DNA from: an uncultured Planctomycetia bacterium
Lineage (GTDB): Bacteria; Planctomycetota; MHYJ01; WSZJ01
Assembly (NCBI GenBank): GCA_964590435.1
Contig: CAZPWT010000029.1
Coordinates: forward strand, 66,280-130,279
DNA length: 64,000 nt
Direction: 5' to 3'
Position numbers and translations under genes: made by a program. This document shows positions 776 through 37,319 of this stretch, piece after piece (the first letter of the stretch is position 1; each line of letters begins with the position of its first letter). The notes under the pieces were generated by a model. It had not been told where the DNA came from. It ran no database searches and was given only the letters and a program-made list of their open reading frames with translations.

Positions 776-1258
776 CTACGGCCCTTTCCGCTGCGGCCTC
801 GCACGCTTCTGCATCTCCTCCGCCAGCGCCACGAACTCCATCTGCAGCTCGCCGAGGGCGCTCGACAGGAAGCGGTCCTCGTCGGCGGACAGGTTGCCCT
901 TCGTCTTGAGCTTCAGCGTCGTGAGCATGTCGATGATCATGCGGGCCTGGCCGATGTCCTGGTAGCGCTCGCCCGTCATCGGGTCTGCGACGAGCCCGAG
1001 CATCATCGTCGCCTGCTGCACGAGCATCGTCACCAGCATCTCGAACGGCCCGCCACGGCGCCGCCCGCCCTGCGCCGGCGGTTCCTCGGCCGGCGGCTCC
1101 GGCGCCGCTTCCCCGGCAGCCGCTGCCGGCGCGGCGGCCTTGGCCGGCGGGGCCGCAGCCGCCGCCTTCGCCGCCTGCATCTTCGCCTTCTCGTCCGCCG
1201 CACGCTTCTTCCAGTCCTCGTCCACCCGCTTCACAGGCTCCGGCGTCTGGTCGGTCAT
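776..1258 (-). CDS. DUF1844-family protein with an Ala/Pro-rich N-terminus.
   Basis: ORF 776..1369, trimmed to the internal ATG at 1256-1258 ([10 protein letters not shown]...). That start overlaps the pyrG stop as ATGA. The conserved C-terminal block [24 protein letters not shown]...[15 protein letters not shown] is typical of DUF1844. Confidence 0.6.
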
Positions 1259-2865: not shown

Positions 2866-2968
2866 TTGCGTTCCCAGAATGGGGCGGGAGTGAAAGTTTC
2901 ATTCTGGGGGAGTGATTCTCGACGGAATAGGGGAAAGTGCCAGAGATAAAGGCCTTTCCCGTCCCTGT

Positions 2969-3028
2969 GCCCTTTCCCTTTCCCTTTCCCTTTCCCTTTC
3001 CCTTTCCCGTTCCCGTGCCCGTGCCCGG
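2969..3028. repeat. Hexanucleotide microsatellite (CCCTTT)x6 continuing as (CCCGTK)x3. Its 3' part is one arm of an interrupted palindrome whose other arm lies at 3062-3096.
   Basis: Read directly from the sequence: ccctttccctttccctttccctttccctttccctttcccgttcccgtgcccgtgcccgg, a ~33-nt loop, then ccgggcacgggcacgggcacgcgcacgggaacggg. Confidence 0.9.
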
Positions 3029-3181
3029 TCTTGGTTCGCGCGGTGTCGGCAATTCAAACGGCCGGGCACGGGCACGGGCACGCGCACGGGAACGGGAACT
3101 GCGGCCTTTGCCCGCCAGGCTGCGGCCGTTCGTGTGGACAAAGTCTGACCACTGTTGCACGGCACAGTTCGCGGGACGACG

Positions 3182-3760
3182 TCATTTCCCGGTGTTCCAG
3201 AAAGAAGCATGCGCTGGATGTCTCGACGCAAACTTCCATGCCGCCTCGCGATACTCGCCTGAACCCGGCATCGGGCACCTCTCGAGTGCCGCGAGAAATT
3301 CCGCCGGGGGCTGATAACGGTGCTCGGCGATGTAGTGGACAATCATCTCGGGAGCCACCCACAGCAAGTCTCCGGCGGGGATGCCGAAGTTGTACGCGCC
3401 GTGGCAATTGTCGCAAAACTCGCAGGTGTGGACTCCGGGCGACAGGACTTTGAACAACCAGAAACCCACGCTCGCAGTCGTGGCCGTTTCTCCGGCCTCC
3501 GGAACGGCGACCCCGGTCACGACATCGACCGCCGTCCGGCCCGACTTCATGACAAATTCCCGCAGGCGCCCGATCACTGCTTCGGGCGTGTCGCCAATCG
3601 GGAAAGGACGATCTTTCGACAGCCAACCGACGGCGCGAACGTAGTCCCCTGCACAGCAATAGGCTCTGCGACCGCCGTCCTCAAACCACATGACCGCACT
3701 CCCGAAAACTCGGGTGTCCCTAATCCACCGCTCACGACCCGCCGTAGCAAGCGTCCGCAT
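3182..3760 (-). CDS. Hypothetical protein. An alternative start is the ATG at 3689-3691.
   Basis: 192-aa ORF with ordinary, non-low-complexity amino-acid composition (…CEFCDNCHGAYNFGIPAGDLLWVAPEMIVHYIAEH…). It lies downstream of kdsB on the same strand and overlaps it by 29 nt if the first start is used. Confidence 0.5.
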   Translation of the reverse strand: MRTLATAGRERWIRDTRVFGSAVMWFEDGGRRAYCCAGDYVRAVGWLSKDRPFPIGDTPEAVIGRLREFVMKSGRTAVDVVTGVAVPEAGETATTASVGFWLFKVLSPGVHTCEFCDNCHGAYNFGIPAGDLLWVAPEMIVHYIAEHRYQPPAEFLAALERCPMPGSGEYREAAWKFASRHPAHASFWNTGK

Positions 3761-4469
3761 GCCGCTTCACGAACGCCTTGTAGTCCTCGGGCGTGTCGAT
3801 TCCGCCAGGTCCCGGCACCGTGAGGCCGACGGCGATTTTGAAGCCGTGCTCGAGAACTCGGAGCTGTTCGAGCTTCTCGGTTTTTTCCAGCGGCGTGGGT
3901 GCCAGCGAGGGGAATCTGAGCAGGAAGTCGCGCTTGTAGGCATACATGCCGACGTGCAGCAGCGGCTTCGCGCCTTCGCCACGCGGGAACGGGATGAGCG
4001 AGCGCGAGAAGTAGAGCGCGTTCCCGGCGCGGTCGCGCACGACCTTGACCTTCGCGGGATCGGCCGGGTCGGCCTTCTCGAACTCGCAGGCGAGCGTCGC
4101 CACCGGCGCCTCGCTCGTGCGCGCCAGCTCGACGAGTTGCTCGATCGCCTCGGGCGCCACCTCGGGCTCGTCCCCCTGCACGTTGACGACGATGTCCTCG
4201 TCGAGCCCTGCCGCGACCTCCGCGATCCGGTCCGTCCCGCTCGGGTGGTCCGCCCGCGTCATCACCGGCGTCCCGCGGAACGATTTCACCGCGTCGAAAA
4301 TCCGCGCGTCATCCGTTGCGACCAGGATCCGCGACACGTTCCGCGCCAGCCGCACCTGCTCCCACACGTGCTGGATCAGGAACTTTCCGGTCTCGTTGAG
4401 CAGCGGCTTCCCCGGCAGCCGTTGCGCTGCGAACCGGGCCGGAATCACCGCGGCCGCCTTCAAGCCCAT
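3732..4469 (-). CDS. kdsB: 3-deoxy-manno-octulosonate cytidylyltransferase (CMP-Kdo synthetase).
   Basis: ORF 3732..4604, trimmed to the ATG at 4467-4469 (MGLKAAAVIPARFAAQRLPGKPLL...). Conserved KdsB blocks are present: IPARF.S.RLPGKPL, VATDD and NVQGDEP. Confidence 0.9.
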   Translation of the reverse strand: MGLKAAAVIPARFAAQRLPGKPLLNETGKFLIQHVWEQVRLARNVSRILVATDDARIFDAVKSFRGTPVMTRADHPSGTDRIAEVAAGLDEDIVVNVQGDEPEVAPEAIEQLVELARTSEAPVATLACEFEKADPADPAKVKVVRDRAGNALYFSRSLIPFPRGEGAKPLLHVGMYAYKRDFLLRFPSLAPTPLEKTEKLEQLRVLEHGFKIAVGLTVPGPGGIDTPEDYKAFVKRHADACYGGS

Positions 4470-4496
4470 CCGCGAAGCCCCGCGCGCGCGCCGTCC

Positions 4497-4524
4497 TCGC
4501 AACCCGCAACCCGCAACTCGCAAC
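4497..4524. repeat. Tandem heptamer array (CGCAACY)x4 in the kdsB/heptosyltransferase intergenic region.
   Basis: cgcaacc cgcaacc cgcaact cgcaact. The same heptamer array recurs at 31425-31459. Confidence 0.85.
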
Positions 4525-4530
4525 TCTCTT

Positions 4531-6576
4531 TCACTGCACCTCTTCCTTCCCCACCGCCCACCCTTCCCCCGACGCCCACAGCGTCTTCCCCGCCCCGCCC
4601 GCATCCGCAGCCAGCGCCGCCGGCGACTTGATCCGCGTCAGCAGCCCCTCCGCCGCCTGCGCCACTTCCTCAGGCTCGATCAGGTTCATGCAGTCCGTGA
4701 TGTCGCAGTCCCGCTTCGTGCACGGCGAGCACGGCATCCCCTTCCATACCACCACGTGCCGGTCGCACCACGGGCCGTACATCGCGGGATCCTTCGGTCC
4801 GTACAACCCGACCACCGGAGCGTTCATCATCGCGGCCAGGTGCAGCGGGCCGGAGTCGCAGCCGATGACGATGGAAGCGCGGGTGACGAGGGCGGCGAGG
4901 GTGCCGATGCGCGGCGTGTCGGGGCCGGCGAAGACGCGCTCCGACGCGGCGCCGCGCGCGGCGGCCTCGGCGATGTCGCGCTCGCCGGGGCCCCACGCGA
5001 ACAGGACGGTGCGCTGGCCTTCGCGGGTGAGAAGCGCCCCGACGCGGGCCCATTTCTCGACGGGCCAGCGCTTGATCGCGCCGAACGCGGAGGTCCCGAT
5101 GTGGCAGACGACGGTGTTGCGGGCGTTCTTCTCGCGGAGCCAGGCATCGATGGCGGCGCGGTCGCGCTCGGGGATCGCGGGGGAGACGCGCGAGACAGTG
5201 ACGGGCACGTCGGCCGCGCGCAGCAGCTCCAGCCCGCGCTCGACCCGGTGCACCACGCCGTCGATCTTCACGCGGTAGTTGTAGTGCTTCTCCGCCCCCT
5301 CCTTCGCCTCGTCGAGCCCGATCTTCGCCGGCGCCTTGCAGACCTTCATGTGCATCGCCGACTTCAGGTTTCCCTGGAAATCGAACGCGACCGTCGGCGC
5401 GAACCCGCGGATCGCCTTCGCCGTCTTCATCGCCCGCAGGACGCTCGAGGGCCAGAGCCACGGCTTCCACCAGATCCCGCGGAATTCGCGGCGCGGGAAA
5501 ACGAGGACCTGGTCGAGACCGGGAAGGCCGTCGAGGAGGGACGCGAAGCGGTCCTCGATAGCCCAGGCGATTTTCGCGTGGGGGAAGGCCTTGCGGAGGT
5601 TGGCGAACGCGGGGAGGACGTGGACGCAATCGCCGAGGGCGGAGAGGCGAATGATAAGGATGCGGTCGAAGTTGATTGCGGGGTTGCCGGGACGAACGGG
5701 GGCGGGCGGAGCGGCCACCGGCGCCGCCGCGGCCGGTTTGGCGACCTTCTTCGTCTCGCCGGAGATCTGCAGGGGCGCTTCCGGCGCCGGATCGCCGGGC
5801 GAGGCCGCGACGCGTGCCGAGGGAGTTCCCTTGGGCGGCGTGGCGCCGATGCGGCGGTTCGTGGTGGCGTCGTCCTCGAGTTCGAGGAGGGTGTTGTCCG
5901 GCTTCGGCATGTCGCCCGGAGTGATCGTGGAGGGATTGGACGGGACGCGCTGGGGAGGCGGCGTGGGCGTCCCGCGGACGGGAGTGCCCGGCGCGGGCCG
6001 GCCGTCGCCCGGGGCCGGCGTCGGGGCGCGAAGGGCCGCGGGGCGCGCGGAGGACGGCGGACGCGGCGGGGGGGTCGGGGGGCCGCCCTGCGCGCGCGGC
6101 GCGCCCGGCGCCGGATTCAGTTGCGACTTCTGCAGGATGACGCTGGGGGACGGAGAAGCATCGTCGACGTCCACGACGGGGATGCTGTCGTCGCGGCCCA
6201 GCCCGGCCTTCGGAGGCGCCGGCGGCCGCGGCTTTCCGTCGACGCCGAGAGCGCCCCAATCGAAGCGAGGCGTCGGCGCGCCGGTCGAAGGAATGCGGCG
6301 CTGCGCCGGCGGCGTGGGCGTGGCGGACTTCGGCGCGCCCGGAGTCGCCGCGCCGGTGGGCCCGAATCCCGGCGTGGGCGTCGCGACGCTCGGCTTGCGC
6401 ATCGCGGGCGGCGTGGGAGTGTGGACGGTGTGAGGGACCTCGACGTCATCGATCGAGTCGAAGTCAAACGGCGACGTATCCGGCTTCCCGTCCTGCGTGG
6501 GCCGGTGGAACCGGGGACGGGCGTCCTTCCGGGGGGGAGTGGGAGGCGGCTTGTCCGGCTCGGGAGTGTCGCTCAC
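4531..6576 (-). CDS. Family-9 glycosyltransferase (ADP-heptose:LPS heptosyltransferase-like) with a ~300-aa proline-rich N-terminal extension.
   Basis: The C-terminal ~370 aa (ILIIRLSALGDCVHVLPAF...IGCDSGPLHLAAMMNAPVVGLYGP) is a GT9 domain. The N-terminus is rich in PTPP/PAP repeats. Start is the GTG at 6574-6576. The long plus-strand ORF 4045..6651 is its antisense shadow. Confidence 0.8.
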   Translation of the reverse strand: MSDTPEPDKPPPTPPRKDARPRFHRPTQDGKPDTSPFDFDSIDDVEVPHTVHTPTPPAMRKPSVATPTPGFGPTGAATPGAPKSATPTPPAQRRIPSTGAPTPRFDWGALGVDGKPRPPAPPKAGLGRDDSIPVVDVDDASPSPSVILQKSQLNPAPGAPRAQGGPPTPPPRPPSSARPAALRAPTPAPGDGRPAPGTPVRGTPTPPPQRVPSNPSTITPGDMPKPDNTLLELEDDATTNRRIGATPPKGTPSARVAASPGDPAPEAPLQISGETKKVAKPAAAAPVAAPPAPVRPGNPAINFDRILIIRLSALGDCVHVLPAFANLRKAFPHAKIAWAIEDRFASLLDGLPGLDQVLVFPRREFRGIWWKPWLWPSSVLRAMKTAKAIRGFAPTVAFDFQGNLKSAMHMKVCKAPAKIGLDEAKEGAEKHYNYRVKIDGVVHRVERGLELLRAADVPVTVSRVSPAIPERDRAAIDAWLREKNARNTVVCHIGTSAFGAIKRWPVEKWARVGALLTREGQRTVLFAWGPGERDIAEAAARGAASERVFAGPDTPRIGTLAALVTRASIVIGCDSGPLHLAAMMNAPVVGLYGPKDPAMYGPWCDRHVVVWKGMPCSPCTKRDCDITDCMNLIEPEEVAQAAEGLLTRIKSPAALAADAGGAGKTLWASGEGWAVGKEEVQ

Positions 6577-6733
6577 GCTCGTGTTAGGTTAAGGATCGCC
6601 CGGAGGTCGAGTCAAGGGGAACGATTGATTCGCTCGCCGCAAGCACTATAATGCCAAGGGCTTATTGCGGGCCCGCCCCGGTCACCCGTTCCCCGCCGGA
6701 CGCCCTTCCCACAACGGCGCCCGGCCGCGAACG

Positions 6734-7513
6734 ATGACCCTGCCGGAAAATCCCCGCGGCCTGCTCGTCACCACCGCGCCCGGCCACGACGACCTCCGCG
6801 CCCTCCTTGCGCAACCGTGGCCCGCGATCGAGGCCGCTTCACGCCCTCTCGGCGGCGGCCGCGGAGGCGTCCGCGAACTCCCGGGCGGCCTCGTCATCCG
6901 CCACTGCCGCCGCGGCGGCGCCCTCGGCGGCCTCCTCGGCGACCGCCACTGGTCCCCCAAGTCCGCCTGGGACGAAATGCAGATCAGCGAGAAACTCCTC
7001 CGCGAAGGCGTCGACGTCGCCGAGGTCCTCGGCGTCCGCGCCGAAAAAAAAGGACTCGCCTGGCGCCTCGACGTCGTCACCCGCACCATCGAGGACGCAG
7101 CCACGCTCCGGGATCTCGTCTCGGGCGAAGCGCCGCGCGGGTTCCCGCCGCCGCCCGTCGCCGCCGTCGCCGCCGCCGTCCGCCGCATGCACGACTCCGG
7201 CCTCTGGCACGCCGACCTCAACCTCCAGAACATCCTCGTCACCCGCGACGGCGGCGTCCGCATCATCGACCTCGCGGGATCGAAAGTGAAGCGCCCGCTC
7301 CCGGAATCCGCGCGGCAGGACAACCTCGCCCGCCTGTACCGCTCCCTCGAGAAACAGCACCTCCGCCTCCCCCGCTTCGCCCTCCTCCGATTTCTCATGG
7401 TCTACTTCGTGCGCGACCGCAAGGCCGTGCGCAAGGCGATCGCGGGCGCGGAGGCGAAGATGAAGCGCCACCGGTTCTGGTGGGCCGTCACCGGGAGAGG
7501 AAAGCGCGCGTGA
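6734..7513 (+). CDS. Lipopolysaccharide kinase of the Kdo/WaaP family (KdkA-like).
   Basis: MTLPENPRGLLV... with HADLNLQNILV and IIDLAGSKV kinase-like motifs. Start is the ATG at 6734, and the 5' part of the track ORF is low-complexity. The stop overlaps the next gene's start. Confidence 0.75.
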   Translation: MTLPENPRGLLVTTAPGHDDLRALLAQPWPAIEAASRPLGGGRGGVRELPGGLVIRHCRRGGALGGLLGDRHWSPKSAWDEMQISEKLLREGVDVAEVLGVRAEKKGLAWRLDVVTRTIEDAATLRDLVSGEAPRGFPPPPVAAVAAAVRRMHDSGLWHADLNLQNILVTRDGGVRIIDLAGSKVKRPLPESARQDNLARLYRSLEKQHLRLPRFALLRFLMVYFVRDRKAVRKAIAGAEAKMKRHRFWWAVTGRGKRA

Positions 7514-8490
7514 AGAACATCCTGGTCAAGGGCGTGAACTGGCTCGGCGACGTCGTGATGTCGCTGCCGGCGATCCGTGCCATCAAGGCGCGGTTCCCGG
7601 GGTCGCGGCTGACCGTGCTGACCAAGGGGAACCTCGCCGACCTGTACGCCTGCGAGCCGGCGGTCGACGAGGTCCTCGCCTACGGCGGCGGTTTCCTCCC
7701 GTTCCTCGGGCTCGTTGGCAGGCTCCGCCGCGCGAAGTTCGACGTGGCGTTCATCTTCCCGCGCTCGCTGCGCGCCTCCCTCGCGCCGTTCGCTTCCCGC
7801 ATCCCGCGCCGCGTCGGGTTCGCGGGTGACGCGGGGAAACCGGTGCTCACCGATCCCATCGAACGCTCCGAGAAGCTGATGACGAACCACCGCGTCGCCT
7901 ACTACCTCGAAGTGCTGAGGCCATTCGGGGAAGTGCCGCGGGCGACGGCGCCGCAGATCGTGCCGCCGGCGGAGGCGAAGGCGTGGGCCGCGGAGCAGCT
8001 CCCGGGAGGGCGGTGGGCGGGGATCAACCCCGGCGCAACGTACGGCAAGGCGAAGCAGTGGTACCCGGAGCGCTTCGTGGACGTCGGCCGGCGGCTGGCG
8101 AAGCGCGGCTACCGGGTCGCGGTCGTTGGCGGCCCCGCGGAAGCGCCGCTGGGCGCGCAGGTGGCGGGCGAGATCGGCCCCTCGGCCGCGAACTTCGCCG
8201 GCAAGACGACGCTTCCCCGCCTCGCCGCGCTGATCGAGCGCTGCGCGGTGTTCGTGACGAACGACACGGGGCCGATGCACGTGGCGGCGGCGGTGGGGAC
8301 GCCGGTGGTGGCGATTTTCGGGCCGACCGACCCGCGGACGACGCGGCCGTTCGGCGAGCGGCATGCGATCGTGCAGCACAAGGTGGAGTGTTCGCCGTGC
8401 CTGCTGCGGGAGTGCCCGATCGACCATCCGTGCATGCGGGACCTGCCGGTGGCGCAGGTCTGGGCGGCGTGCGAAAGGTGGATCGCGTGA
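7510..8490 (+). CDS. Family-9 glycosyltransferase (heptosyltransferase II-like).
   Basis: The GTG start at 7510 overlaps the upstream stop as GTGA. The product VKNILVKGVNWLGDVVMSLPAIRAIKARFP...TNDTGPMHVAAAVGTPVVAIFGPTDP shows a WaaF/WaaC-like fold. Confidence 0.8.
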   Translation: MKNILVKGVNWLGDVVMSLPAIRAIKARFPGSRLTVLTKGNLADLYACEPAVDEVLAYGGGFLPFLGLVGRLRRAKFDVAFIFPRSLRASLAPFASRIPRRVGFAGDAGKPVLTDPIERSEKLMTNHRVAYYLEVLRPFGEVPRATAPQIVPPAEAKAWAAEQLPGGRWAGINPGATYGKAKQWYPERFVDVGRRLAKRGYRVAVVGGPAEAPLGAQVAGEIGPSAANFAGKTTLPRLAALIERCAVFVTNDTGPMHVAAAVGTPVVAIFGPTDPRTTRPFGERHAIVQHKVECSPCLLRECPIDHPCMRDLPVAQVWAACERWIA

Positions 8491-9266
8491 GCGAACGGGC
8501 GAAGGTCACGGCGTTCGTCATCACGCTCAACGAGGAAGCCAACATCCGCGCGTGCCTCGAGACGCTCGCGTGGGCGGACCAGGTCGTGGTCGTCGACTCG
8601 TTCTCGACGGACAAGACCTGCGACATCGCCCGGGAGATGGGGGCCGTCGTCGTCCAGCGCAAGTGGAATGGCATCAACGAGCAGCGCCAGGCCGGCCTCG
8701 AGCACTGCGCCCACGACTGGGTCTTCTGCCTCGACGCCGACGAGCGCGTCTCGCCGGAGCTGCGCGCGGAAATCCCGAAGGTCCTCGAGAACCCCTCCGC
8801 CGACGGCTACGACATCCCGCGCCACACGTGGTACCTCGGCCGCTGGATCAACCACTGCGGCTGGTACCCCGACCCGAAACTCCGCCTCTTCAGGAAATCG
8901 AAGGGCAAGTTCGCCGGCACCGACCCGCACGACCGGTTCGCCCTCGACGGCAAACCCGGGCGCCTCAAGGGCGAAATCCAGCACTTCACCTACAAGAACT
9001 TCGCCCACCAGGTCCGCACGATCAACGCGTTCTCCGAGGCCGCCTCGAAGGAGCTCTACGACAAAGGGCGGCGCTTCTCGCTCCTCGCCCTCCTGTTCAA
9101 GCCGCCCTGGAAATTCGTCGAGGTTTTTATTTTCAAGGCCGGCTTCCTCGACGGCCTCGCCGGCTTCGTCATCGCCGTCGCCAGCGCGTTCAACGTCTTC
9201 ACGCGCCAGGTCAAGCTCTGGGAGCGCACGAAAGGGCACGACGTCGCCGGGGGCGGCCCCGCGTGA
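8487..9266 (+). CDS. Family-2 glycosyltransferase (LPS core, WaaE/KdtX-like).
   Basis: The GTG start at 8487 overlaps the upstream stop. AFVITLNEEANIRACLETLAWADQVVVVDSFSTDKT with a later DADE motif indicates a GT2 fold. Confidence 0.8.
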   Translation: MSERAKVTAFVITLNEEANIRACLETLAWADQVVVVDSFSTDKTCDIAREMGAVVVQRKWNGINEQRQAGLEHCAHDWVFCLDADERVSPELRAEIPKVLENPSADGYDIPRHTWYLGRWINHCGWYPDPKLRLFRKSKGKFAGTDPHDRFALDGKPGRLKGEIQHFTYKNFAHQVRTINAFSEAASKELYDKGRRFSLLALLFKPPWKFVEVFIFKAGFLDGLAGFVIAVASAFNVFTRQVKLWERTKGHDVAGGGPA

Positions 9267-10366
9267 AGATCGCGCTGGTCAGCTACACGTGGAGCGAGAC
9301 GCGCGGCGGGGTGGAGCGGTACGTCTTCGACCTGGCGCGGGGGCTGGTGAAGCGCGGGCACGAGGTGCACGTGTGGAGCCGCCGCCGCGAGGGGGAAACG
9401 CCCGGGGTGGAGTTCCACGACGTCCCCGGCGTCTCGATCGGGCACCTGAAATACAACGCCTTTGCCCGAGACGTCGCCCGCGCCGTCAGCCTCGACGACT
9501 ACGACTGCGTCCACGGCTTCGGCCGCGCCTTCACGCAGGACCTCCTCCGCGTCGGCGGCGGCTGCCATGAGGAATACCTGCGGCAGACCAAGGGCCGCGA
9601 GCCCGGGCCGCTCTGGTTCCTCTTCCACCCCAAGGACCGCGCGCTGATCCGGCTGGAGAAGGAGGTGTTCGCGAAGCGCTGCTGGCGGCGGCTGGTCTGC
9701 ATTTCGCGGCGGGTGGCGGAGGAAGTCCACCGCGTGCACGGCGTCCCGCTCGAGGAGTGCCAGGTCATCCACAACGGGACGGACGTCGAGAAGTTCCACC
9801 CGCGGAACCGCGTCGCTTCCGACGGCCAGGTGCGCCTGCTGTTCGCGGGAAGCGGCTTCGAGCGCAAGGGGCTGGAGCAGGCGCTGGAGGCGCTGGCGCG
9901 GGTGAAGGGCGGGTGGCGGCTGCGGGTGGCGGGGCGCGGGGATGCGGCGCCGTACAAGGCGCGGGCCGAGCGGCTCGGGATCGCGGGGCGAGTCGAGTTC
10001 GCGGGGCCGCAGTCGGACATGCCGGCGGAGTACGGCCGCGCCGACGTGCTGCTGTTCCCCACGCTGTACGACGCGTTCGGGACGGTCACGCTCGAAGCGA
10101 TGGCGACGGGGATCCCGGTGGTGGTCTCGCGGCAGGCGGGGGCGAGCGAGGTCGTGACGCACGGCGTGGACGGCGTGATCGTGGAGAACCCGCGCGCCCC
10201 GGCCGAGCTGGCCGCGGCGATCGAGCCGCTGGTCGCGGACCCGGCGAAACGCGCGGCGATGGGGGAGGCCGCCCGGGCTACGGCCGAGCGGCACTCCATC
10301 GATGCCAACATCGAGAAAGTCATCGGCGTCTACCGCGACATCGCCCGCGAAAAGGGGCGCGCATGA
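9263..10366 (+). CDS. Family-4 glycosyltransferase (GT-B fold).
   Basis: The GTG start at 9263 overlaps the upstream stop. KIALVSYTWSETRGGVERYV... and the C-terminal EAMATGIPVV block are GT4 signatures. Confidence 0.8.
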   Translation: MKIALVSYTWSETRGGVERYVFDLARGLVKRGHEVHVWSRRREGETPGVEFHDVPGVSIGHLKYNAFARDVARAVSLDDYDCVHGFGRAFTQDLLRVGGGCHEEYLRQTKGREPGPLWFLFHPKDRALIRLEKEVFAKRCWRRLVCISRRVAEEVHRVHGVPLEECQVIHNGTDVEKFHPRNRVASDGQVRLLFAGSGFERKGLEQALEALARVKGGWRLRVAGRGDAAPYKARAERLGIAGRVEFAGPQSDMPAEYGRADVLLFPTLYDAFGTVTLEAMATGIPVVVSRQAGASEVVTHGVDGVIVENPRAPAELAAAIEPLVADPAKRAAMGEAARATAERHSIDANIEKVIGVYRDIAREKGRA

Positions 10367-11784
10367 GCGGCTGGTCCTGGACGATCGCCCCCGGCGCCGA
10401 ATCGCTCACTCGCGCCCTCGTCGGCCGCGAGGACGGCTGGTTCCCGCCTCGCGCCCCGGAAAAGGAGAATGCCGTCCGCGCCCTGTTCCGCGCCGAGGGG
10501 CTCTTCATCAAGCACTACAAGAGGCGCCGCGACCAGGCCGAGAGCGAGTGGGCGGCGCTGACGCATCTCGCCGCGCGCGGCGTCCCGGTGCCGCGCCCGG
10601 TCGCGTGGTCCCCGGCCCCGGGCGGAGGCGCGGTGCTCGCGATGCAGGAACTCCCCCGCGCCCTGCCGCTCAAGGAGGCGTTCCGCCGCGACCTCGTCCC
10701 GGCCGTCGCTTCCCTCCTCCGCTCGATGAACGCCGCGGGGTTCCTCCACCTGGACCTGCACACGGGGAACATCCTCGTTGCGGGGGATCGCCTGCACGTC
10801 ATCGACCTCCACCGAGGCCGCATCGGCGCCGTCTCGCCTAAGGACGAAGAGCGCGCCGTCGGGCAGTTCGCGTACTCGCTGTCGCGCATCGCCTCGCGCG
10901 CCGAGGTGATGCGGTTCATGAAGTCCGCGCTGGGGGCCTCGGCGGACATCGAGGATCGTCTCCGCCGCGCCAACCTCCACGCCGACGCGTTCCGCCGCCG
11001 GCATGTCGCGAGCCGGACGCGGCGGTGCCTCAAGGAGTCGACGGGGTTCGCCGTGAAGCGCGCGGGCGGCGGGCTCGTGATCTCGCGCCGCCCCGCGACG
11101 CCGGAGGACACGCTGGCCGCGCTCGCGCACCACGACAAGCTCTGCGAGGCGGGCCTGGCGTCCAAGGTGCTCGACGGCCGCCGCATGTCGGTGTTCGAGG
11201 GCGTCGTCGTGAAGGAGTGGAAGACCGGCGGGCCGTTCCGCGCCATCCGCAACTGGATCCGCGGCAGCCCGGCGCGGGCGGCCTGGATCGGCGCGCAGGG
11301 GATGCGCGTCCGGAACCTCCCGGCGCCCGAGGCGGTCGGTCTCGTGGAACAGCGCGGCCGGTCCGCCTTCATCGCGAAGGAAAGCCCCGGGAAACCGCTC
11401 GACCGCTACTGCCGCGAGGACGTCCCCCGGCTGAAGGACCGCCGGCCGTTCCTGGAAGGGCTCGCCGCGCTCGTGGCGCGCCTCCACCGCGCCGAAGTCC
11501 ACCACCGCGACCTCAAGGCCAACAACCTCCTCGCCGACGGTCCGACGCGCTTCGCGTTCCTCGACCTCGAGGACCTCGAGTTCCGCCGCGTTCGGCGCCC
11601 CGACGCCGTGCGGGCCCTCGCCCAGCTCAACGCGGCGCTGCCGATCCTGACGCGCGCCGACCGGTGGCGCATGCTCCGGCGCTACGCCGCGGGCTGGAAG
11701 CTCCTGGGCGACCTGCGCGCGGCCGCGGCCGAGATCATGAAACTGACCGTCGCGCGCCGGCACAATTGGCCGCCCCGCAAATAG
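10363..11784 (+). CDS. Tandem two-domain Kdo/WaaP-family (LPS kinase-like) protein.
   Basis: The ATG start at 10363 overlaps the upstream stop as ATGA. There are two kinase-like catalytic loops: HLDLHTGNILV...IDLHRG and HHRDLKANNLL...FLDLEDL. Confidence 0.75.
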   Translation: MSGWSWTIAPGAESLTRALVGREDGWFPPRAPEKENAVRALFRAEGLFIKHYKRRRDQAESEWAALTHLAARGVPVPRPVAWSPAPGGGAVLAMQELPRALPLKEAFRRDLVPAVASLLRSMNAAGFLHLDLHTGNILVAGDRLHVIDLHRGRIGAVSPKDEERAVGQFAYSLSRIASRAEVMRFMKSALGASADIEDRLRRANLHADAFRRRHVASRTRRCLKESTGFAVKRAGGGLVISRRPATPEDTLAALAHHDKLCEAGLASKVLDGRRMSVFEGVVVKEWKTGGPFRAIRNWIRGSPARAAWIGAQGMRVRNLPAPEAVGLVEQRGRSAFIAKESPGKPLDRYCREDVPRLKDRRPFLEGLAALVARLHRAEVHHRDLKANNLLADGPTRFAFLDLEDLEFRRVRRPDAVRALAQLNAALPILTRADRWRMLRRYAAGWKLLGDLRAAAAEIMKLTVARRHNWPPRK

Positions 11785-11835
11785 AAACGCGGGCCGCAGC
11801 GCCCTCGGCGCCGCGGCCCGCGTGGATCTCGCCGG

Positions 11836-12393
11836 CTACTTCTTCTCTTCCGCCTTCTCCGCCACCGCTTCGCCCTTCGACAGCTGAAGCGTCAGGTTCC
11901 CGTCCTTGTCCTCGACCATCGTGCCCTCGACGCGCGCGGCCTTGGTGCCGGCCTTCAGCGCCTCGCCGAGCTTCGCCACGACGTCCTCGGGCTTGTCCTT
12001 GTCGTCCTTCGCCGCGCGGTTGGCCAGCGCAACCTTCTGGCCGGACTTCAGGACCAGCCAGAGCGTCTTGTCCTCGGGCTTCTCGGACGCCGCGAGCTCG
12101 CCCGACGTCGCGACCTGCATCGCGTCGATCGAGTACTTCTTCGGCAGGACGGCCTTGATGATCGACGGCGAGAACTTCGCGCCCGACTTGAACGTCACTT
12201 CGAACTCATCGGTCGCTTTCGACAGCACATTGGAGGCGCCTTCCAGGCCCTCGAGGGACTTCGTGATGGCTTTCCCTCAGGAAACCGCTCAGGACACCCC
12301 GCCGATCTTGAGATGCACGGTCGTGGCGGGAACTTCGTCCGCCAGCGCGGCGAGCGCCATGAAGGCGAAGGCCGCGGCTACGGAAAACAGACG
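11836..12393 (-). CDS. Candidate secreted selenoprotein with an HMA-like (heavy-metal-associated) fold. Two in-frame TGA codons at 12289-12291 and 12277-12279 interrupt the reading frame. Alternatively a pseudogene, or two separate ORFs.
   Basis: A signal-peptide ORF (MRLFSVAAAFAFMALAALA/DEVPATTVHLKIGGVS, then TGA) and ORF 11836..12228 are in the same frame and separated only by the two TGA codons. The concatenated sequence ...LKIGGVS-U-AVS-U-GKAITKSLEGLEG...FEVTFKSG...SIIKAVLPKKYSID matches the beta-alpha-beta-beta-alpha-beta pattern of CopZ/MerP, with TGA where the metal-binding Cys residues sit. Confidence 0.4.
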
Positions 12394-12495
12394 CATGTCG
12401 TCCTCCTGAATTCGGGTTGTATCGGGAACGCCGAAGTGGCGGCCTGCATTCCATCGGATTTTGTCGGACTCCGCAAGTGCGGCCCGGCGACAAAA

Positions 12496-12527
12496 AAACC
12501 CCGCCCTTTGCGGGGCGGGGTCTCGAG
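12496..12527 (-). terminator. Rho-independent terminator after the 12539..14083 gene.
   Basis: The plus strand reads aaaaaaaccccgccctttgcggggcgggg. On the minus strand this is an 8-bp GC stem followed by TTTTTTT. Confidence 0.7.
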
Positions 12528-12538
12528 GAATGCCTGGC

Positions 12539-14083
12539 TTACTTGTGCTTCGGCTCGAACGACTTCGTCGCGCCGTTCCAGTAGCTCTCGTCGCGGTTCC
12601 GGCTCCACCACTCGCGCCACCGGAGGATCGCATCCTTGATCTCGGGCTTCTGCTCCGCGAAGGCGATCTTCGGGTCGTAGCCGGACACGTCCACCGTCAT
12701 CCGCTCGTCCGTGGCCACGTCCTTCAGCACGGAAATCGCCACGTCGCGGACCCAGGGGTCCGTGATCGTCTTGTCGTCCAGGGAGTCGAACATCGACTCG
12801 ATGAAGTTGAAATTCGACTGCTGCCCCTTGCCCACCACGTCGGCGATAAATTCCTTCCACTGCTGGATGCCGGGGTAGAGCGTCGGGACGACGTTGCCCT
12901 TGTCGTCCTTCGTGCTCTTGTCCTCGTACCCGCAGATCCAGTCGTAGACCACGTCGCTCGTCGGGTTCTCGCGCGTCATGACCGATTCCACGTACGTCGG
13001 GATCGGGCACTTCCGCTCCTTCGCCTTCGTCACGACGACCTTGAGCTGGTCCACCAGGCTCTTGATCTGGTCGTCGTTCAGCGCCGCGCCGCGCGTCAGG
13101 CCGGAAAGCTCGGCCGGGATCTCCGGGATGCGGTTGGTCAGCTCCGTCTGCAGCGTCGCGAACATCGGCGCCTGGTTCCCTTCCCAGCTCTTCATCCTCG
13201 CCAGCGCCGCCAGCGTCGCCTTCGCCTGCCGCAGAGCCTCGACCTTGTCGTTCGGGTCCTCCGACAGCAGCTTCGCCAGGTCCATGTCCTTGCGCGCCGC
13301 CGCCGTGTAACGGATCAGCAGGTCCTGCGCCACGCGGCGGATCAGCGGGTCGTCGTTCGTCATCGCGCTCACCAGCTCCGCGATGTCCGTCTTCGAAACC
13401 GCCGGGTTCACGCCCACCACCACCCAATCGTGCTTCTTCAGCTCAAGCCCGCGCTGGAAGCTGTAGAACTGGTCGCCGTCGCGCCCGTACGTGAGGCGGA
13501 AGACGCTGTTCTCGTAGCGCAGGTAGATCTTGCTCTCCGCCGTGCTCTTCCCTTCCGGCCGCTCCGACTTGAACGTCACCGGGTCGACCAGGCCGCTCAC
13601 CATCACCTCGACGTCGTTGTAGCGGTAACCCTTGTCCTGGAAGATCGCCAGGCAGTGCACCGACTCGCCGGGCTGAAGGACGCCGACCTTGCGCTGGTCG
13701 CCCTTGTTCAGGTACTTCCGGCGCTTCTTGAAGTCCTCGATCAGCTCCTTCTGGATCCCCGTCGAGTAGCCGCCCATCCGGTCGGCTTCCGCGATGATCG
13801 AATTCTCCTCGACCGGGTAGAAACCCGGCTGCTGCCAGTTGCGGCCGTCGACGTGGAGGGCGACGTCGACGATCAGGGGGCAGGCCTGCGGAGTGTTGTT
13901 CGTCACGGTGTAGACGAAGTACCAGAAGTTCGACTCCTCTCCCAGCGGCGTCCGGTACGTGTAGTGCTCCGGCCGCTCATGGTCGAAGGTCAGTTCCCAC
14001 CGCTTCTTCACGTCCGCCCCGGCCACTCCTGCGATGCACGCAAGGACAGCCGAAGTCATGACGAATCGGGATCCGAAACGCAT
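12539..14083 (-). CDS. Secreted hypothetical protein, 514 aa.
   Basis: ORF 12539..14293, trimmed to the ATG at 14081-14083 (MRFGSRFVMTSAVLACIAGVAGA, a signal peptide) with a GGAGAG RBS 5 nt upstream. The composition is rich in Lys, Asp, Glu, Trp and Tyr. No recognisable catalytic motif. Confidence 0.7.
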   Translation of the reverse strand: MRFGSRFVMTSAVLACIAGVAGADVKKRWELTFDHERPEHYTYRTPLGEESNFWYFVYTVTNNTPQACPLIVDVALHVDGRNWQQPGFYPVEENSIIAEADRMGGYSTGIQKELIEDFKKRRKYLNKGDQRKVGVLQPGESVHCLAIFQDKGYRYNDVEVMVSGLVDPVTFKSERPEGKSTAESKIYLRYENSVFRLTYGRDGDQFYSFQRGLELKKHDWVVVGVNPAVSKTDIAELVSAMTNDDPLIRRVAQDLLIRYTAAARKDMDLAKLLSEDPNDKVEALRQAKATLAALARMKSWEGNQAPMFATLQTELTNRIPEIPAELSGLTRGAALNDDQIKSLVDQLKVVVTKAKERKCPIPTYVESVMTRENPTSDVVYDWICGYEDKSTKDDKGNVVPTLYPGIQQWKEFIADVVGKGQQSNFNFIESMFDSLDDKTITDPWVRDVAISVLKDVATDERMTVDVSGYDPKIAFAEQKPEIKDAILRWREWWSRNRDESYWNGATKSFEPKHK

Positions 14084-14159
14084 GCGGACCTCTCCTATAA
14101 ATAGCGGGTTTGCCCCCACGACATCGAATGAGGAGTCTAGCGCGGCCGAGAAGGCGAAG

Positions 14160-16145
14160 TCAAGGATGCGAAGCGCGTTGGATGAGGTCGGCGGCGCCCG
14201 GGTGCCCGGCCTCCCCCGCGGCGGTCGCCAGGCGGATCGCCTCCCCCCGGTCCCCCCGGGCCAGGGCGCAGGAAGCGGCGCCGAAGAGGGCATCGGCGTG
14301 GAAGGGATCGTCGGCGAGGACCGAGAGGAAAAGGGGCTCGGCGTCGGCGGGGCGGTTGAGGGAGAGGTAGGCGATCCCGAGGTTGGCGCGGTAGCCGCGG
14401 GAGCGCGGCTGGAGGTCGGCCGCCCGGCGGAGCACGGGGACGGCGTCGGCGGGCCGCCCCTGGGAAAGCAGCCATTCGCCGTAGCGGCCGGGGAGCCGCG
14501 GATCGGCGGGCTCGGCGCTCATCGCCTTGCGGAACAGCGCGTCCACTTCGGAGGACCGCCCGACCGCCGGGAGAAACATCGCCGCCTGCACCACCGCGTC
14601 CACGTACGCCGGCCGCGCCGCCACAGCCCGCAGCGTGGCTTCTATCGCGGGCCCCGCCGCGCCGCCCTTCTGGTACAGCCGCCCCAGCATCAGCAGCACG
14701 TGCGGATCGCCCGGCCGCCGCGCGAGGGACGCCTGGAAGTGCCGCTCGGCGACGGAAAGTTCCCCCAGCTCGGCGCGCGACGCGCCGAGGATGAGGTCCC
14801 GGTCGCAGTACGCGCCGGTCGGCACGCCGAGCGGATTCGCGAACGACAGCGCCCCGCCGGCGATCGCCAGCGCCGCCAGCGACGCCCCGGCCCGCGTCCC
14901 AAGCTCCCGGCGCCGCGTCCACGCCGCTTCCAGCGCCACCCCGGCCGCCGGAATCATCGCGACCAGCAGCGGCACGCGGTACCGGTTCGACGTCACCAGC
15001 AGCAGGAGCGGAATCCCCGCCGCCGCCGCCCCCAGAACCCAGAGCGCACGATTCTCACCGGCGCGCTTCCACAGGAGCACCGCCCCCGGCAACGCGAGCC
15101 CCGCAAGGAGCGCCCACCGCCCGAACGCGAGCAGGTCCAGCGCCAGTTCGTCCTCGAGAATCCCCGCATCCATCGAGGAGTCCACCTCCGCCGCGCTCCA
15201 CGTCGCCAGCAGCCGCCGGCCGCACAGCCCGATCCAGCGGAACGGGTGCGAGGCCGCCCAGCGCACCGCTTCCCCCCGAAAGTGCCGGTCCTGCTCGGCG
15301 GAGGTGAGGTGGCCGGCGCGCCACGCGCGGTCGACGGTGTCGTCGTAGGGCGGGCCCTGCATGACGTTGGGGTACCCGTCCGCCGCGGGGTTATTGCCGA
15401 TCCAGATGTTCAGCCCGACGTTTGCCTGGAGCGCGTACGCCCCGTCGTCCACTCCCGCGTTGTGCGCGCAGACCGCCAGCGGCAGGACCAGCGCGGCCGC
15501 CAGCCCCGCGGCGGCGGCCAGTGCCCCGCGGCGGGAGCGTTCGAAAAGGGGCCGCAGGAGGACCAGCGCGAACGCGAGCATCATGCCGTGCGACAGCGCC
15601 GCCAGCCCCACCCCGAGCCCCGGCGCGATCGCCCGCAGCGGGCTTCCCTTCTCCGCCCACACCCCGAGGTTGAGAACGGCGGCCGAGAGGAAGAGCGCGA
15701 GGCCGGCGGCGGAGGGGTGGATTTCCTGGAAGACGGCGGGCCACGCGACGGCCGCGAGCGCGCCCGCGGCGAGGGCGGCGCGGTCGCCGGCGAGGATCTT
15801 GGTGAAGCGCCAGAGGAGGACGGCGGTCCCCGCGCCGAGCAGCGCCTGGAGGACGTAGAGCGCAAAGGTCGCCTCGCCGAACATCGCGAACGCGGTCCCT
15901 GCGAACCAGCCGTAGAGGGGCGGGTGGATTTCCATCTTGTGCGACCACCAGTCGCCGGCGGCGACTTCGCGGGCGCGGATGAAGTACTCGGCGCCGTCGA
16001 CGACGGGGGCGCGGAGGAAGGGGATCTTGCGCCAGGCTTCGATGGCGAGGGCGAGCCGGACGGAGAGGGCGGCGGCGAAGATGGCGACGGGCGGCAGCCA
16101 GGGTCGCGATTGGGAGGACGGAGGGGGCGGCGCCGTGTTTGCCAC
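14160..16145 (-). CDS. Polytopic GT39/ArnT-PMT-like glycosyltransferase fused to C-terminal TPR repeats.
   Basis: The N-terminal ~400 aa hold multiple hydrophobic helices in an ArnT/PMT-like arrangement. The C-terminus holds TPR-like repeats (…LGRLYQKGG…ANLGIAYLSL…). Start is the GTG at 16143-16145. Confidence 0.65.
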   Translation of the reverse strand: MANTAPPPPSSQSRPWLPPVAIFAAALSVRLALAIEAWRKIPFLRAPVVDGAEYFIRAREVAAGDWWSHKMEIHPPLYGWFAGTAFAMFGEATFALYVLQALLGAGTAVLLWRFTKILAGDRAALAAGALAAVAWPAVFQEIHPSAAGLALFLSAAVLNLGVWAEKGSPLRAIAPGLGVGLAALSHGMMLAFALVLLRPLFERSRRGALAAAAGLAAALVLPLAVCAHNAGVDDGAYALQANVGLNIWIGNNPAADGYPNVMQGPPYDDTVDRAWRAGHLTSAEQDRHFRGEAVRWAASHPFRWIGLCGRRLLATWSAAEVDSSMDAGILEDELALDLLAFGRWALLAGLALPGAVLLWKRAGENRALWVLGAAAAGIPLLLLVTSNRYRVPLLVAMIPAAGVALEAAWTRRRELGTRAGASLAALAIAGGALSFANPLGVPTGAYCDRDLILGASRAELGELSVAERHFQASLARRPGDPHVLLMLGRLYQKGGAAGPAIEATLRAVAARPAYVDAVVQAAMFLPAVGRSSEVDALFRKAMSAEPADPRLPGRYGEWLLSQGRPADAVPVLRRAADLQPRSRGYRANLGIAYLSLNRPADAEPLFLSVLADDPFHADALFGAASCALARGDRGEAIRLATAAGEAGHPGAADLIQRASHP

Positions 16146-28884: not shown

Positions 28885-28899
28885 GGCGGGCTACCCGAC

Positions 28900-29670: not shown

Positions 29671-29691
29671 CCGCCGGTAGAATGCGGCGCA

Positions 29692-37209: not shown

Positions 37210-37319
37210 GCGAAGGCGGCCTCAGGAACGCCGCGGGCGCGGCGTCCCCTCATTGCGTCCGAACCCGGCCGTCGCCTCGCCCCTCAACACTCAACCCTCA
37301 ACGCGCGCCCCTCCAGCGG

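What the first reader, a model, noticed from the sequence alone, without database searches (positions are those of the whole stretch)
11836..12393. Candidate periplasmic HMA-fold selenoprotein with two in-frame TGA codons at the metal-binding positions
A 35-aa signal-peptide ORF (MRLFSVAAAFAFMALAALADEVPATTVHLKIGGVS) ends with TGA. A second TGA follows 12 nt later. The same frame then continues for 130 aa. Read through the stops, the joined protein follows the HMA (CopZ/MerP) beta-alpha-beta-beta-alpha-beta pattern. LKIGGVS aligns with LKVEGMT. The two TGAs fall where the CxxC metal-binding cysteines sit, here as UxxxU. GKAITKSLEGLEG aligns with the first helix, and SIIKAVLPKKYSID aligns with the second helix and final strand. 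The two TGAs sit in a 12-nt imperfect tandem duplication (GTGTCCTGAGCG / GTTTCCTGAGGG). A 10-nt palindrome CCCTCGAGGG lies ~20 nt downstream. No convincing bacterial SECIS stem-loop is visible.
Basis: partly seen in the sequence, partly recalled or inferred. Interest (0 to 1): 0.72.

Follow-up and report, generated by a model that had tools for sequence, protein, structure and literature searches.

The report
Secreted double-selenocysteine metal-binding protein gene
This is very probably a real gene for an exported copper/mercury-chaperone-like protein. Its two metal-binding cysteines are replaced by selenocysteines, each encoded by a "stop" codon, and it belongs to a small Planctomycetota family that databases annotate only as truncated hypothetical proteins.

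Summary
On the minus strand, 12396..11836 is one 186-codon frame with in-frame TGAs at 12291..12289 and 12279..12277.

Both TGAs are kept at the same site in 15 or more distinct homologs, down to about 27-35% identity. All are from Planctomycetota MAGs or metagenomes. The protein sequence is conserved on both sides of the TGAs. TGA is an ordinary stop elsewhere in the window.

With U read as C, the family profile matches HMA domains: CopA 4.8e-7, CopZ 2.9e-6, MerP 2.4e-5. The two TGAs fall on the two metal-binding Cys positions, with one extra loop residue (UxxxU). One paralog has UxxU.

It fits the published bacterial consensus for the second UGA (31 nt spacing) but lies 43 nt from the first UGA. 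Its stem shows compensatory changes across the family.

The C-terminal half is predicted to be an OB fold. No Cys-containing orthologs were found.

HMA-type double-Sec proteins are already known (NCBIfam NF041115, NF045683). This family falls far below their cut-offs, so I call it a new variant of a known kind.

I could not test for Sec machinery in this genome, and the metal and function are inferred.

The parts
12402..12407 (-). Shine-Dalgarno-like AGGAGG, 5 nt upstream of the ATG
   Evidence: Read directly from the sequence.
11836..12396 (-). Full coding sequence: 186 codons plus a TAG stop, including two in-frame UGA (Sec) codons
   Evidence: After the second UGA, GC3 is 0.93 and GC2 is 0.40. 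Orthologs keep the same 187-codon frame.
12340..12396 (-). Signal peptide MRLFSVAAAFAFMALAALA, with predicted cleavage ALA|DE (Sec-pathway, signal peptidase I type). Assigned by inspection; no predictor was run.
   Evidence: Read from the sequence. Equivalent hydrophobic leaders ending in small residues followed by D/E occur in all members.
12289..12291 (-). First in-frame UGA (codon 36). It aligns with the first Cys of the HMA GMxCxxC motif.
   Evidence: Conserved in all homologs with DNA.
12277..12279 (-). Second in-frame UGA (codon 40). It aligns with the second Cys of the HMA motif.
   Evidence: Same calls as for the first UGA.
12097..12324 (-). HMA-like (ferredoxin-fold) domain, about residues 25-100, with the loop G-V-S-U-A-V-S-U
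   Evidence: Family profile versus PDB HMA domains gives E 4.8e-7 to 5e-5. hhalign versus B. subtilis CopZ gives 93% probability. Members reach E 9.8e-8 against Pfam HMA and 8.8e-8 against MerP. AlphaFold models show a1-b2-b3-a2-b4 here and a full b-a-b-b-a-b in paralog P0026.
11863..12117 (-). C-terminal OB-fold-like domain (b-b-b-a-b-b), about residues 94-178, followed by a Lys/Glu tail
12233..12252 (-). Candidate SECIS hairpin GAGGGCC-UGGAA-GGC(G)CCUC. The apical loop is at 12245..12241. The loop starts 31 nt after UGA-2 and 43 nt after UGA-1.
   Evidence: The loop fits the N1-G-[G/U]-N-N2 consensus quoted in PMC13188914. Stem positions 4, 6 and 7 show compensatory changes across 15 unique sequences.
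12255..12276 (-). Weak upstream hairpin H1 (GGGA...UCCC) between UGA-2 and the SECIS-like hairpin. It is much stronger in distant members.
11787..11823 (-). Intrinsic-terminator-like hairpin (17 bp) plus a T-rich tail, ending the monocistronic unit
12498..12516 (-). Terminator-like hairpin of the upstream gene. It marks the 5' boundary of the transcription unit.

Best explanation
Window 12396..11836 (minus strand) is one gene for a secreted protein of about 17 kDa after signal-peptide cleavage.

Shown:
- One reading frame runs through two UGA codons 12 nt apart.
- Both UGAs and the protein sequence around them are conserved across a Planctomycetota family.
- The N-terminal domain is an HMA (CopZ/MerP-type) domain, and the two UGAs occupy the two metal-ligand positions.
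- A conserved hairpin with a UGGAR apical loop follows the UGAs.
- The C-terminal half is predicted to be an OB fold.

Inferred:
- Both UGAs are decoded as selenocysteine by SelB·GTP·Sec-tRNA(Sec), recruited by that hairpin. One SECIS probably serves both codons, as has been proposed for UxxU proteins.
- The protein is exported by the Sec pathway and cleaved after ALA.
- The two selenolates on the b1-a1 loop bind a soft metal ion (Cu(I), Hg(II), Ag(I) or Cd(II)) in the periplasm more tightly than a CxxC site would.
- The OB domain docks the protein to a partner or to the cell envelope.

The confidence of 0.8 is for 'a real gene whose two UGAs are recoded, most likely as Sec'. The metal-binding role on its own I put at about 0.6.
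For: - Frame and TGAs.
- Both TGAs are conserved in window/L021, L001, L004, L007, L023, L025, L026, L013, L015, L014, L016a-c, L019 and L020. These share 27-95% identity.
- Every database entry for the family is a 5'-truncated ORF with a start at a different position.
- In four related species, identical-residue codons in the leader vary synonymously (10 of 14), as expected for a translated region.
- TGA terminates 9 of 32 long ORFs in the window. Housekeeping genes such as SecA, EF-G, Rho and ribosomal proteins are intact under the standard code.
- HMA homology.
- Fold predictions.
- SECIS-like hairpin: 13 of 15 unique sequences have 6-9 bp at a fixed position with a UGGAA/G/C loop. The other two have an equivalent GGA or GUC loop 8-9 nt upstream.
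- Stem pair types are GC/CG/GU/AU at position 4, AU/GC/CG at position 6, and GC/GU/UA/CG at position 7.
- Only 25% of all UGA trinucleotides in the window have any bSECIS-like hairpin by the same script.
- The motif GCCTGGARGGC is expected 0.2 times per window and marks the site in nearly all family loci. It is absent from the Sec-free paralogs.
- The gene is monocistronic, with its own Shine-Dalgarno sequence and flanking terminator-like hairpins.
- Sec machinery is documented in some Planctomycetes (PMC4807772).
- A single SECIS serving a UxxU motif has been proposed (PMC13582414).
Against: - No selA, selB, selC or selD was found in the 64-kb window, and no tRNA-Sec in any fetched locus. The rest of the genome could not be examined.
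- The hairpin lies 43 nt from the first UGA, outside the 16-37 nt range of the published consensus. My script finds no consensus hairpin for UGA-1 in the window clade.
- In the window clade, the folding energy of the 54 nt after UGA-2 is no better than that of synonymous recodings (z about 0). The hairpin core could therefore be a by-product of the conserved G-L-E-G peptide.
- The dip in synonymous variation around the hairpin is not significant for the 24-codon region tested (5/16 versus 42/79, p = 0.17).
- No Cys-containing orthologs were found, which is unusual for selenoproteins.
- The HMA scores used C at the U positions, which favours the match.
- The window protein alone is below Pfam's HMA threshold (13.5 versus 24.8 bits).
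- The genomic context is LPS-core genes with no metal-resistance genes, so it gives no functional support.
Confidence: 0.8

Rival explanations
1. The two UGAs are recoded site-specifically and the gene is real, but one or both are read as cysteine. This would happen through a selC-like tRNA charged with Cys (tRNA-ReC) delivered by SelB, or through another suppressor, giving a CxxxC or mixed Sec/Cys site.
For: A 2026 study notes that genomes with UxxU motifs more often carry tRNA-ReC, and that either UGA may then be read as Cys (PMC13582414). The first UGA lies outside the usual SECIS spacing.
Against: No tRNA gene of any kind was found in the sequence available, so nothing speaks for it directly. 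If Cys were acceptable, TGY codons should appear at these sites somewhere in a family this divergent, and none do.
Confidence: 0.08
2. The protein is a genuine double-Sec selenoprotein, but the UxxxU pair is a redox centre (diselenide/selenol exchange, or detoxification of peroxides or polysulfides in the periplasm) rather than a metal-binding site.
For: Reviews state that most bacterial selenoproteins are redox proteins (PMC9312934, PMC13188914). The loop has one residue more than the canonical metal-binding CxxC. There are no metal-homeostasis genes nearby.
Against: All sequence similarity is to metal-binding HMA proteins (CopZ, CopA, MerP, ZntA), with no thioredoxin-fold signal. Known Sec-containing HMA relatives are annotated as metal-binding (NF041115, NF045683). 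One paralog keeps the canonical two-residue spacing.
Confidence: 0.2
3. There are two separate genes: a 35-codon leader ORF ending at the first TGA, and an independent protein of 120-146 aa that starts downstream. This is how all databases annotate it.
For: Gene callers produce exactly this annotation.
Against: The called starts differ between orthologs and use ATG, GTG or TTG at non-homologous positions. No Shine-Dalgarno sequence precedes the internal GTG. The peptide between UGA-2 and the called starts (GKAITKSLEGLEG...) is conserved in frame. The HMA domain spans the TGAs, with b1 and the G-x-S motif upstream and helix a1 downstream. A downstream protein made alone would lack both a signal peptide and strand b1.
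Confidence: 0.04
4. It is a pseudogene, or an assembly or sequencing artefact, carrying two nonsense mutations.
For: None beyond the presence of stop codons.
Against: The identical arrangement appears in independent assemblies from NCBI, ENA, JGI and Logan. It appears in 15 or more divergent sequences, including three paralogs in one locus. Substitution patterns on both sides are coding-like.
Confidence: 0.01

Closest known systems
NCBIfam NF041115 'UxxU_metal_bind' metal-binding (seleno)protein. Reviews list it as 'putative mercuric reductase / metal-binding protein, UxxU, 2 Sec', first predicted in Olavius symbionts.
   Same: It has an HMA-type domain with two selenocysteines at the two metal-ligand positions. 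It is the best NCBIfam hit for the window protein (E 8.8e-5) and matches 8 of 12 family members (PMC13188914).
   Different: The score is 22.6 bits against a cut-off of 95. The window protein has UxxxU rather than UxxU. It is 186 aa with a signal peptide and an extra OB-fold domain, against a 74-position single-domain model. Its taxonomic range is different (Planctomycetota).
MerP (TIGR02052) and CopZ/CopA N-terminal HMA domains (PF00403)
   Same: They share the ferredoxin-like b-a-b-b-a-b fold with the G-M-x-C-x-x-C loop at the start of helix 1. MerP is likewise periplasmic with a signal peptide. Profile matches are 4.8e-7 (CopA), 2.9e-6 (CopZ) and 2.4e-5 (MerP).
   Different: These proteins use Cys rather than Sec, with two residues between the ligands rather than three. 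They have no OB domain. MerP sits in mer operons, whereas no merT, merA or merR is nearby here.
NCBIfam NF045683 'MerT/CopZ fusion-like heavy metal transport selenoprotein'
   Same: It is another HMA-related selenoprotein. One family member hits it weakly (E 0.0036).
   Different: It is a membrane MerT fusion. The present family is soluble, secreted and fused to an OB fold.
Periplasmic OB-fold proteins (NlpE/CutF C-terminal domain, YgiW/BOF, CusF/SilF)
   Different: There is no sequence similarity. The conserved residues in the C-terminal domain (G, L, N, R, D) include no Met/His/Trp metal site. Cytoplasmic nucleic-acid-binding OB folds score equally well.

Membership tests
Bacterial selenoprotein (UGA recoded as Sec) | In-frame UGA conserved among homologs, with coding conservation on both sides | tested here: met
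   15 or more distinct sequences at 27-95% identity keep both UGAs. The leader and the post-UGA peptide are conserved in frame.
Bacterial selenoprotein (UGA recoded as Sec) | The UGA aligns with Cys in homologous proteins | tested here: inconclusive
   Met only at superfamily level: both UGAs align with the CxxC cysteines of CopA, CopZ and MerP. No Cys-containing orthologs exist in the libraries searched. The only full-length relatives (P0026, P0147, P0148) have neither Cys nor Sec.
Bacterial selenoprotein (UGA recoded as Sec) | [quoted passage not shown] | tested here: inconclusive
   UGA-2 meets the criteria in all 12 sequences tested (spacing 31-32 or 22-23 nt, loop UGGAR/GGA/GUC, -7.8 to -13.6 kcal/mol). 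UGA-1 does not meet them in the window clade (43 nt) and meets them in only about half of the members. Compensatory stem changes are present. The energy is no better than that of synonymous recodings.
Bacterial selenoprotein (UGA recoded as Sec) | selA, selB, selC and selD present in the same genome | not testable with these tools
   None were found in the 64-kb window or in the fetched loci. An E. coli SelA query returned only enterobacterial rows. Some Planctomycetes do carry the full set (PMC4807772).
Bacterial selenoprotein (UGA recoded as Sec) | Selenium incorporated at the UGA positions | not testable with these tools
   This needs 75Se labelling or mass spectrometry.
HMA domain (Pfam PF00403) | Score at or above the Pfam gathering threshold | tested here: not met
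   The window protein (U read as C) scores 13.5 bits against 24.8, E 0.099. Four of 12 family members match at E <= 0.01, best 9.8e-8. The family profile hits PDB HMA domains at 4.8e-7, so homology to the superfamily is supported even though the single sequence fails.
HMA domain (Pfam PF00403) | b-a-b-b-a-b ferredoxin-like fold | tested here: met
   The AlphaFold2 model of the part after UGA-2 shows a1-b2-b3-a2-b4 (pLDDT 89). The full-length paralog P0026 shows b-a-b-b-a-b (pLDDT 86).
HMA domain (Pfam PF00403) | G-M-x-C-x-x-C metal-binding loop | tested here: not met
   The window has G-V-S-U-A-V-S-U: Sec instead of Cys, and three residues instead of two between the ligands. Paralog L016b has G-M-T-U-Q-P-U with the canonical spacing.
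NCBIfam NF041115 UxxU_metal_bind | Score at or above 95 bits, and a UxxU motif | tested here: not met
   22.6 bits, with the best member at E 2.6e-6. The motif here is UxxxU.
MerP (TIGR02052) | Score at or above 92.55 bits, and mer operon context | tested here: not met
   15.3 bits. The neighbours are LPS-core and unknown genes, with no merT, merA or merR.

The most novel reading that the evidence does not exclude
This is a Sec-obligate family. It is a secreted HMA-OB fusion found only in Planctomycetota, with two selenocysteines in a UxxxU loop and no Cys-containing orthologs anywhere in about 15 billion predicted proteins. Both UGAs, 12 nt apart, would be decoded from one downstream hairpin that sits 43 nt from the first codon. 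That is beyond the accepted 16-37 nt SECIS window and would imply a more spacing-tolerant SelB/SECIS system, or a two-hairpin SECIS, in this phylum.
Probability: 0.35. Interest if true: 0.7.

Novelty: new variant of a known kind. Interest (0 to 1): 0.58.

Why it matters
- Annotation: every public entry for this family is a truncated "hypothetical protein" lacking its signal peptide and its active site. Correcting this adds a selenoprotein family and extends the known selenoproteome of Planctomycetota.
- Metal chemistry: a diselenolate HMA site should bind soft metals such as Cu(I) and Hg(II) more tightly than a CxxC site. That makes it relevant to metal handling in the lakes and groundwater where these MAGs were recovered, and to engineering high-affinity metal binders.
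[quoted passage not shown] Cys/Sec-pair search strategies would therefore miss this family.
- Decoding: two UGAs 12 nt apart followed by one conserved hairpin give a natural test case for how far a bacterial SECIS can act.

Tried and rejected
- Global TGA reassignment: rejected. Nine of 32 long ORFs end in TGA, and housekeeping genes are intact.
- Rfam and ARAGORN found no RNA family or tRNA in the window and no tRNA in 12 related loci.
- Whole-segment folding energy does not discriminate. Against dinucleotide shuffles z is -0.11, and against synonymous recodings the mean z is -0.9, about 0 in the window clade.
- RNAalifold on the ungapped alignment found only three invariant pairs, because the bulge shifts the register. 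I replaced it with a register-aware pair table.
- The sliding synonymous-site test was not significant.
The 9-sequence alignment found one new locus in metagenomes and six in GTDB genomes.
- The search for Sec machinery failed. An E. coli SelA query listed only the 120 best rows, all enterobacterial. Genome and metagenome scan quotas were then spent.
- A crude screen for other split ORFs with an in-frame TGA in the window and loci found none.
Only the post-UGA part and a Sec-free paralog were modelled.
- The afdb50 fold library was unavailable.
It is not evidence of a recent duplication.
- The palindrome CCCTCGAGGG is not conserved (for example L001 has CCCTCGGGCG). It matters only because it supplies the 5' arm of the hairpin.

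Full report
**Observation**

The minus strand from 12396 to 11836 is a single 187-codon frame. It reads MRLFSVAAAFAFMALAALADEVPATTVHLKIGGVS-TGA-AVS-TGA-GKAITKSLEGLEG...AEEKK-TAG. The TGAs are at 12291..12289 and 12279..12277.

An AGGAGG lies 5 nt upstream of the ATG. Terminator-like hairpins flank the unit at 12516..12498 (end of the upstream gene) and 11823..11787. The gene therefore looks monocistronic.

After the second TGA, GC3 is 0.93 and GC2 is 0.40, the same coding signature as the neighbouring genes.

The open frame after the second TGA is 146 codons.

**Is TGA reassigned?**

No. Nine of 32 long, coding-like ORFs in the window end in TGA. SecA, EF-G, Rho, MetK, CTP synthase and a ribosomal-protein operon are all intact under the standard code.

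**Homologs**

A word-indexed search with the read-through protein (U read as C) found 11 clusters, all 103-142 aa. They are truncated at the 5' end and begin at different, non-homologous start codons.

An exhaustive phmmer search with the 146-residue post-UGA part against 1.84 billion cluster representatives found 16 representatives. Nearly all are truncated in the same way.

Wherever DNA could be fetched, a 30-37-codon signal-peptide ORF lies upstream in the same frame, and both TGAs are present:

| Locus | Identity to window | Sequence around the TGAs |
|---|---|---|
| L001 | 74% | FGGVS*KVS*GKA |
| L004 | 67% | same layout as the window |
| L007 | 82% | same layout as the window |
| L021 / L023 / L025 / L026 | 95 / 80 / 55 / 53% | both TGAs present |
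| L013 / L015 | 44% | GMS*AGS*GGK |
| L014 | 31% | GMS*PMS*AAA |
| L016a, b, c (three paralogs in one locus) | 29-38% | GMS*KMN*GG; GMT*QP*VK; GTS*GAS*GA |
| L019 | 29% | GVG*PTA*GM |
| L020 | 33% | GLS*PHS*GG |

The six GTDB representative genomes that carry the gene are all Planctomycetota MAGs (Planctomycetia, "Ca. Brocadiia") from lakes, groundwater and Danish environmental samples.

Among four related species, codons for identical residues in the leader vary synonymously (10 of 14). This is what a translated region looks like.

Pseudogene, assembly artefact and "two independent ORFs" are therefore very unlikely.

**What the protein is**

The single sequence gives only weak hits: Pfam HMA at E 0.099, and NCBIfam NF041115 "UxxU_metal_bind, metal-binding (seleno)protein" at E 8.8e-5 (22.6 bits, cut-off 95).

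The family as a whole is clearer. A profile of 12 full-length members (U read as C) hits solved HMA domains:
- CopA N-terminal domains at 4.8e-7
- CopZ at 2.9e-6
- MerP at 2.4e-5

hhalign against B. subtilis CopZ gives 93% probability. Individual members reach 9.8e-8 against Pfam HMA and 8.8e-8 against MerP.

In these alignments the two U positions fall on the two Cys of G-M-x-C-x-x-C, with one inserted residue. Paralog L016b has the canonical two-residue spacing. Writing C at the U positions helps these scores, but the flanking matches (vsG.s..., ai.kaL.gleGv) are independent of that choice.

AlphaFold2 on the 146 residues after UGA-2 (pLDDT 89) gives a1-b2-b3-a2-b4 followed by b-b-a-b-b. The Sec-free paralog P0026 gives the complete b-a-b-b-a-b fold plus the same C-terminal module (pLDDT 86).

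All members have a hydrophobic leader ending in small residues followed by D/E. This was judged by inspection; no signal-peptide predictor was available.

**SECIS**

The consensus quoted in a 2026 review has four criteria (PMC13188914):
- a 4-16 bp stem
- 16-37 nt between the UGA and the loop
- MFE of -7.5 kcal/mol or lower

In the window, GAGGGCC-UGGAA-GGC(G)CCUC (12252..12233) fits this for UGA-2. It has 7 bp plus one bulge, the loop UGGAA with U:A as N1:N2, a 31 nt spacing, and -9.3 to -10.2 kcal/mol.

The same hairpin lies at the same codon positions in 13 of 15 unique family sequences, with 6-9 bp. The other two (L014, L016b) have an equivalent hairpin with a GGA or GUC loop 8-9 nt closer.

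Stem positions 4, 6 and 7 show GC/CG/AU/GU, AU/GC/CG and GC/GU/UA/CG respectively. These are compensatory changes, and they accompany amino-acid changes.

With the same script, 25% of all UGA trinucleotides in the window have some qualifying hairpin. The motif GCCTGGARGGC is expected 0.2 times per window (2 were observed, one at the hairpin itself, 12238..12248). It marks the site in nearly all family loci and is absent from the Sec-free paralogs.

Caveats:
- The hairpin core is encoded by the conserved peptide G-L-E-G.
- The folding energy is no better than that of synonymous recodings in the window clade.
- For the 24-codon region tested, the drop in synonymous variation around the hairpin is not significant.
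- The hairpin is 43 nt from UGA-1, outside the consensus range.
- Many distant members have a second, sequence-variable hairpin between UGA-2 and the conserved one. Its role is unknown.

A single SECIS serving both codons of a UxxU motif has been proposed for [NiFe] hydrogenases. The same authors warn that such UGAs might be read as Cys by tRNA-ReC (PMC13582414).

**Sec machinery**

None was found in the window (about 40 ORFs scanned). There is no tRNA-Sec in the window or in 12 loci.

The remainder of the genome is out of reach with these tools. An attempt via E. coli SelA returned only enterobacterial hits.

Full sel gene sets are reported in several Planctomycetes (PMC4807772), so the trait exists in the phylum. 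This remains the main untested point.

**Cys homologs**

None were found. The profile search of the 5.8-billion-cluster library returned only truncated (Sec-type) members, plus a small clade of full-length proteins of 196-199 aa (P0026, P0147, P0148). This clade has neither Cys nor Sec in the loop and occurs as three tandem genes.

[quoted passage not shown] Here the only Cys counterparts are distant generic HMA proteins.

**Context and function**

In the window clade the gene sits between a conserved 510-580-aa protein of unknown function and LPS-core genes: Kdo/WaaP kinases, GT4, GT2 and GT9.

In distant members the neighbours differ: PntAB, a Na/Ca exchanger, PSCyt2/PSD1/DUF1501, a histidine kinase, aldehyde dehydrogenase, and a radical SAM protein. 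No metal-resistance operon appears.

Function therefore rests on the domain alone. It is most likely a periplasmic soft-metal binder or chaperone with a diselenolate site. A redox role for the U/U pair is the main functional rival.

**Comparison and novelty**

HMA-type selenoproteins with two Sec at the ligand positions are already catalogued (NF041115, UxxU, 2 Sec; NF045683, MerT/CopZ fusion).

The present family differs in several ways:
- It falls far below their cut-offs.
- It has UxxxU spacing in all but one member.
- It carries a signal peptide and an OB-fold domain.
- It is confined to Planctomycetota.
- It has no Cys orthologs.

No NCBIfam or Pfam model covers it. No paper in the searchable library mentions a UxxxU selenoprotein motif.

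I rate it a new variant of a known kind, with moderate-to-good interest.

Noticed in passing
L016 2288-5491 (also L017, L018; GCA_974655585.1): Three paralogs of the family lie within 3.2 kb, each split by two TGAs. One has UxxU (GMT*QP*) and two have UxxxU. They are separated by two unknown genes on the opposite strand and lie next to a radical SAM gene.
   Followed up: partly
L028 3411-5190 (JGI Ga0376077_0001000); proteins P0026, P0147, P0148: A Sec-free and Cys-free paralog clade of 196-199 aa occurs as three tandem genes, each overlapping the next by 4 nt. It has the same ferredoxin-like plus OB architecture but has lost the ligand loop, and it lacks the GCCTGGARGGC hairpin motif.
   Followed up: partly
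window 12255-12276 (-) and the equivalent positions in L016a, L016c, L019, L020, L013: A second hairpin lies between UGA-2 and the conserved UGGAR hairpin. It is weak in the window but has perfect 5-8 bp stems with unrelated sequences in distant members (GGCCGU/ACGGCC, GCCGCG/CGCGGC, GGCCGC/GCGGCC, GGUUCC/GGAACC). It may be part of a two-hairpin recoding signal for the first UGA.
   Followed up: partly
window 11839-11862 (-) and the C-termini of family members: Nearly all members end in a Lys/Glu-rich tail finishing in E-K-K or K-K-K. The tail is predicted to be disordered (pLDDT 41), and its role is unknown.
   Followed up: no
window 12539-14293 (-): A 584-aa protein with no Pfam hit is the conserved upstream neighbour of the selenoprotein gene in L004, L007 and L008, but not in L001.
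   Followed up: no
window 28885-31416 (+): A 261-codon coding-like ORF without a Pfam hit lies in the same frame as the Ser/Thr kinase-TPR gene 29671-31416, separated from it by a single TAG. This may be chance or a misjudged boundary.
   Followed up: no
window 1255-11784 and 35935-37221: The window holds a cluster of LPS-core genes: KdsB, GT9 heptosyltransferases, two or three Kdo/WaaP-family kinases, GT2 and GT4, and KdtA further on. The cluster is syntenic in the related MAGs. The window also holds several DUF1559/N-methyl prepilin-like genes typical of Planctomycetota.
   Followed up: partly
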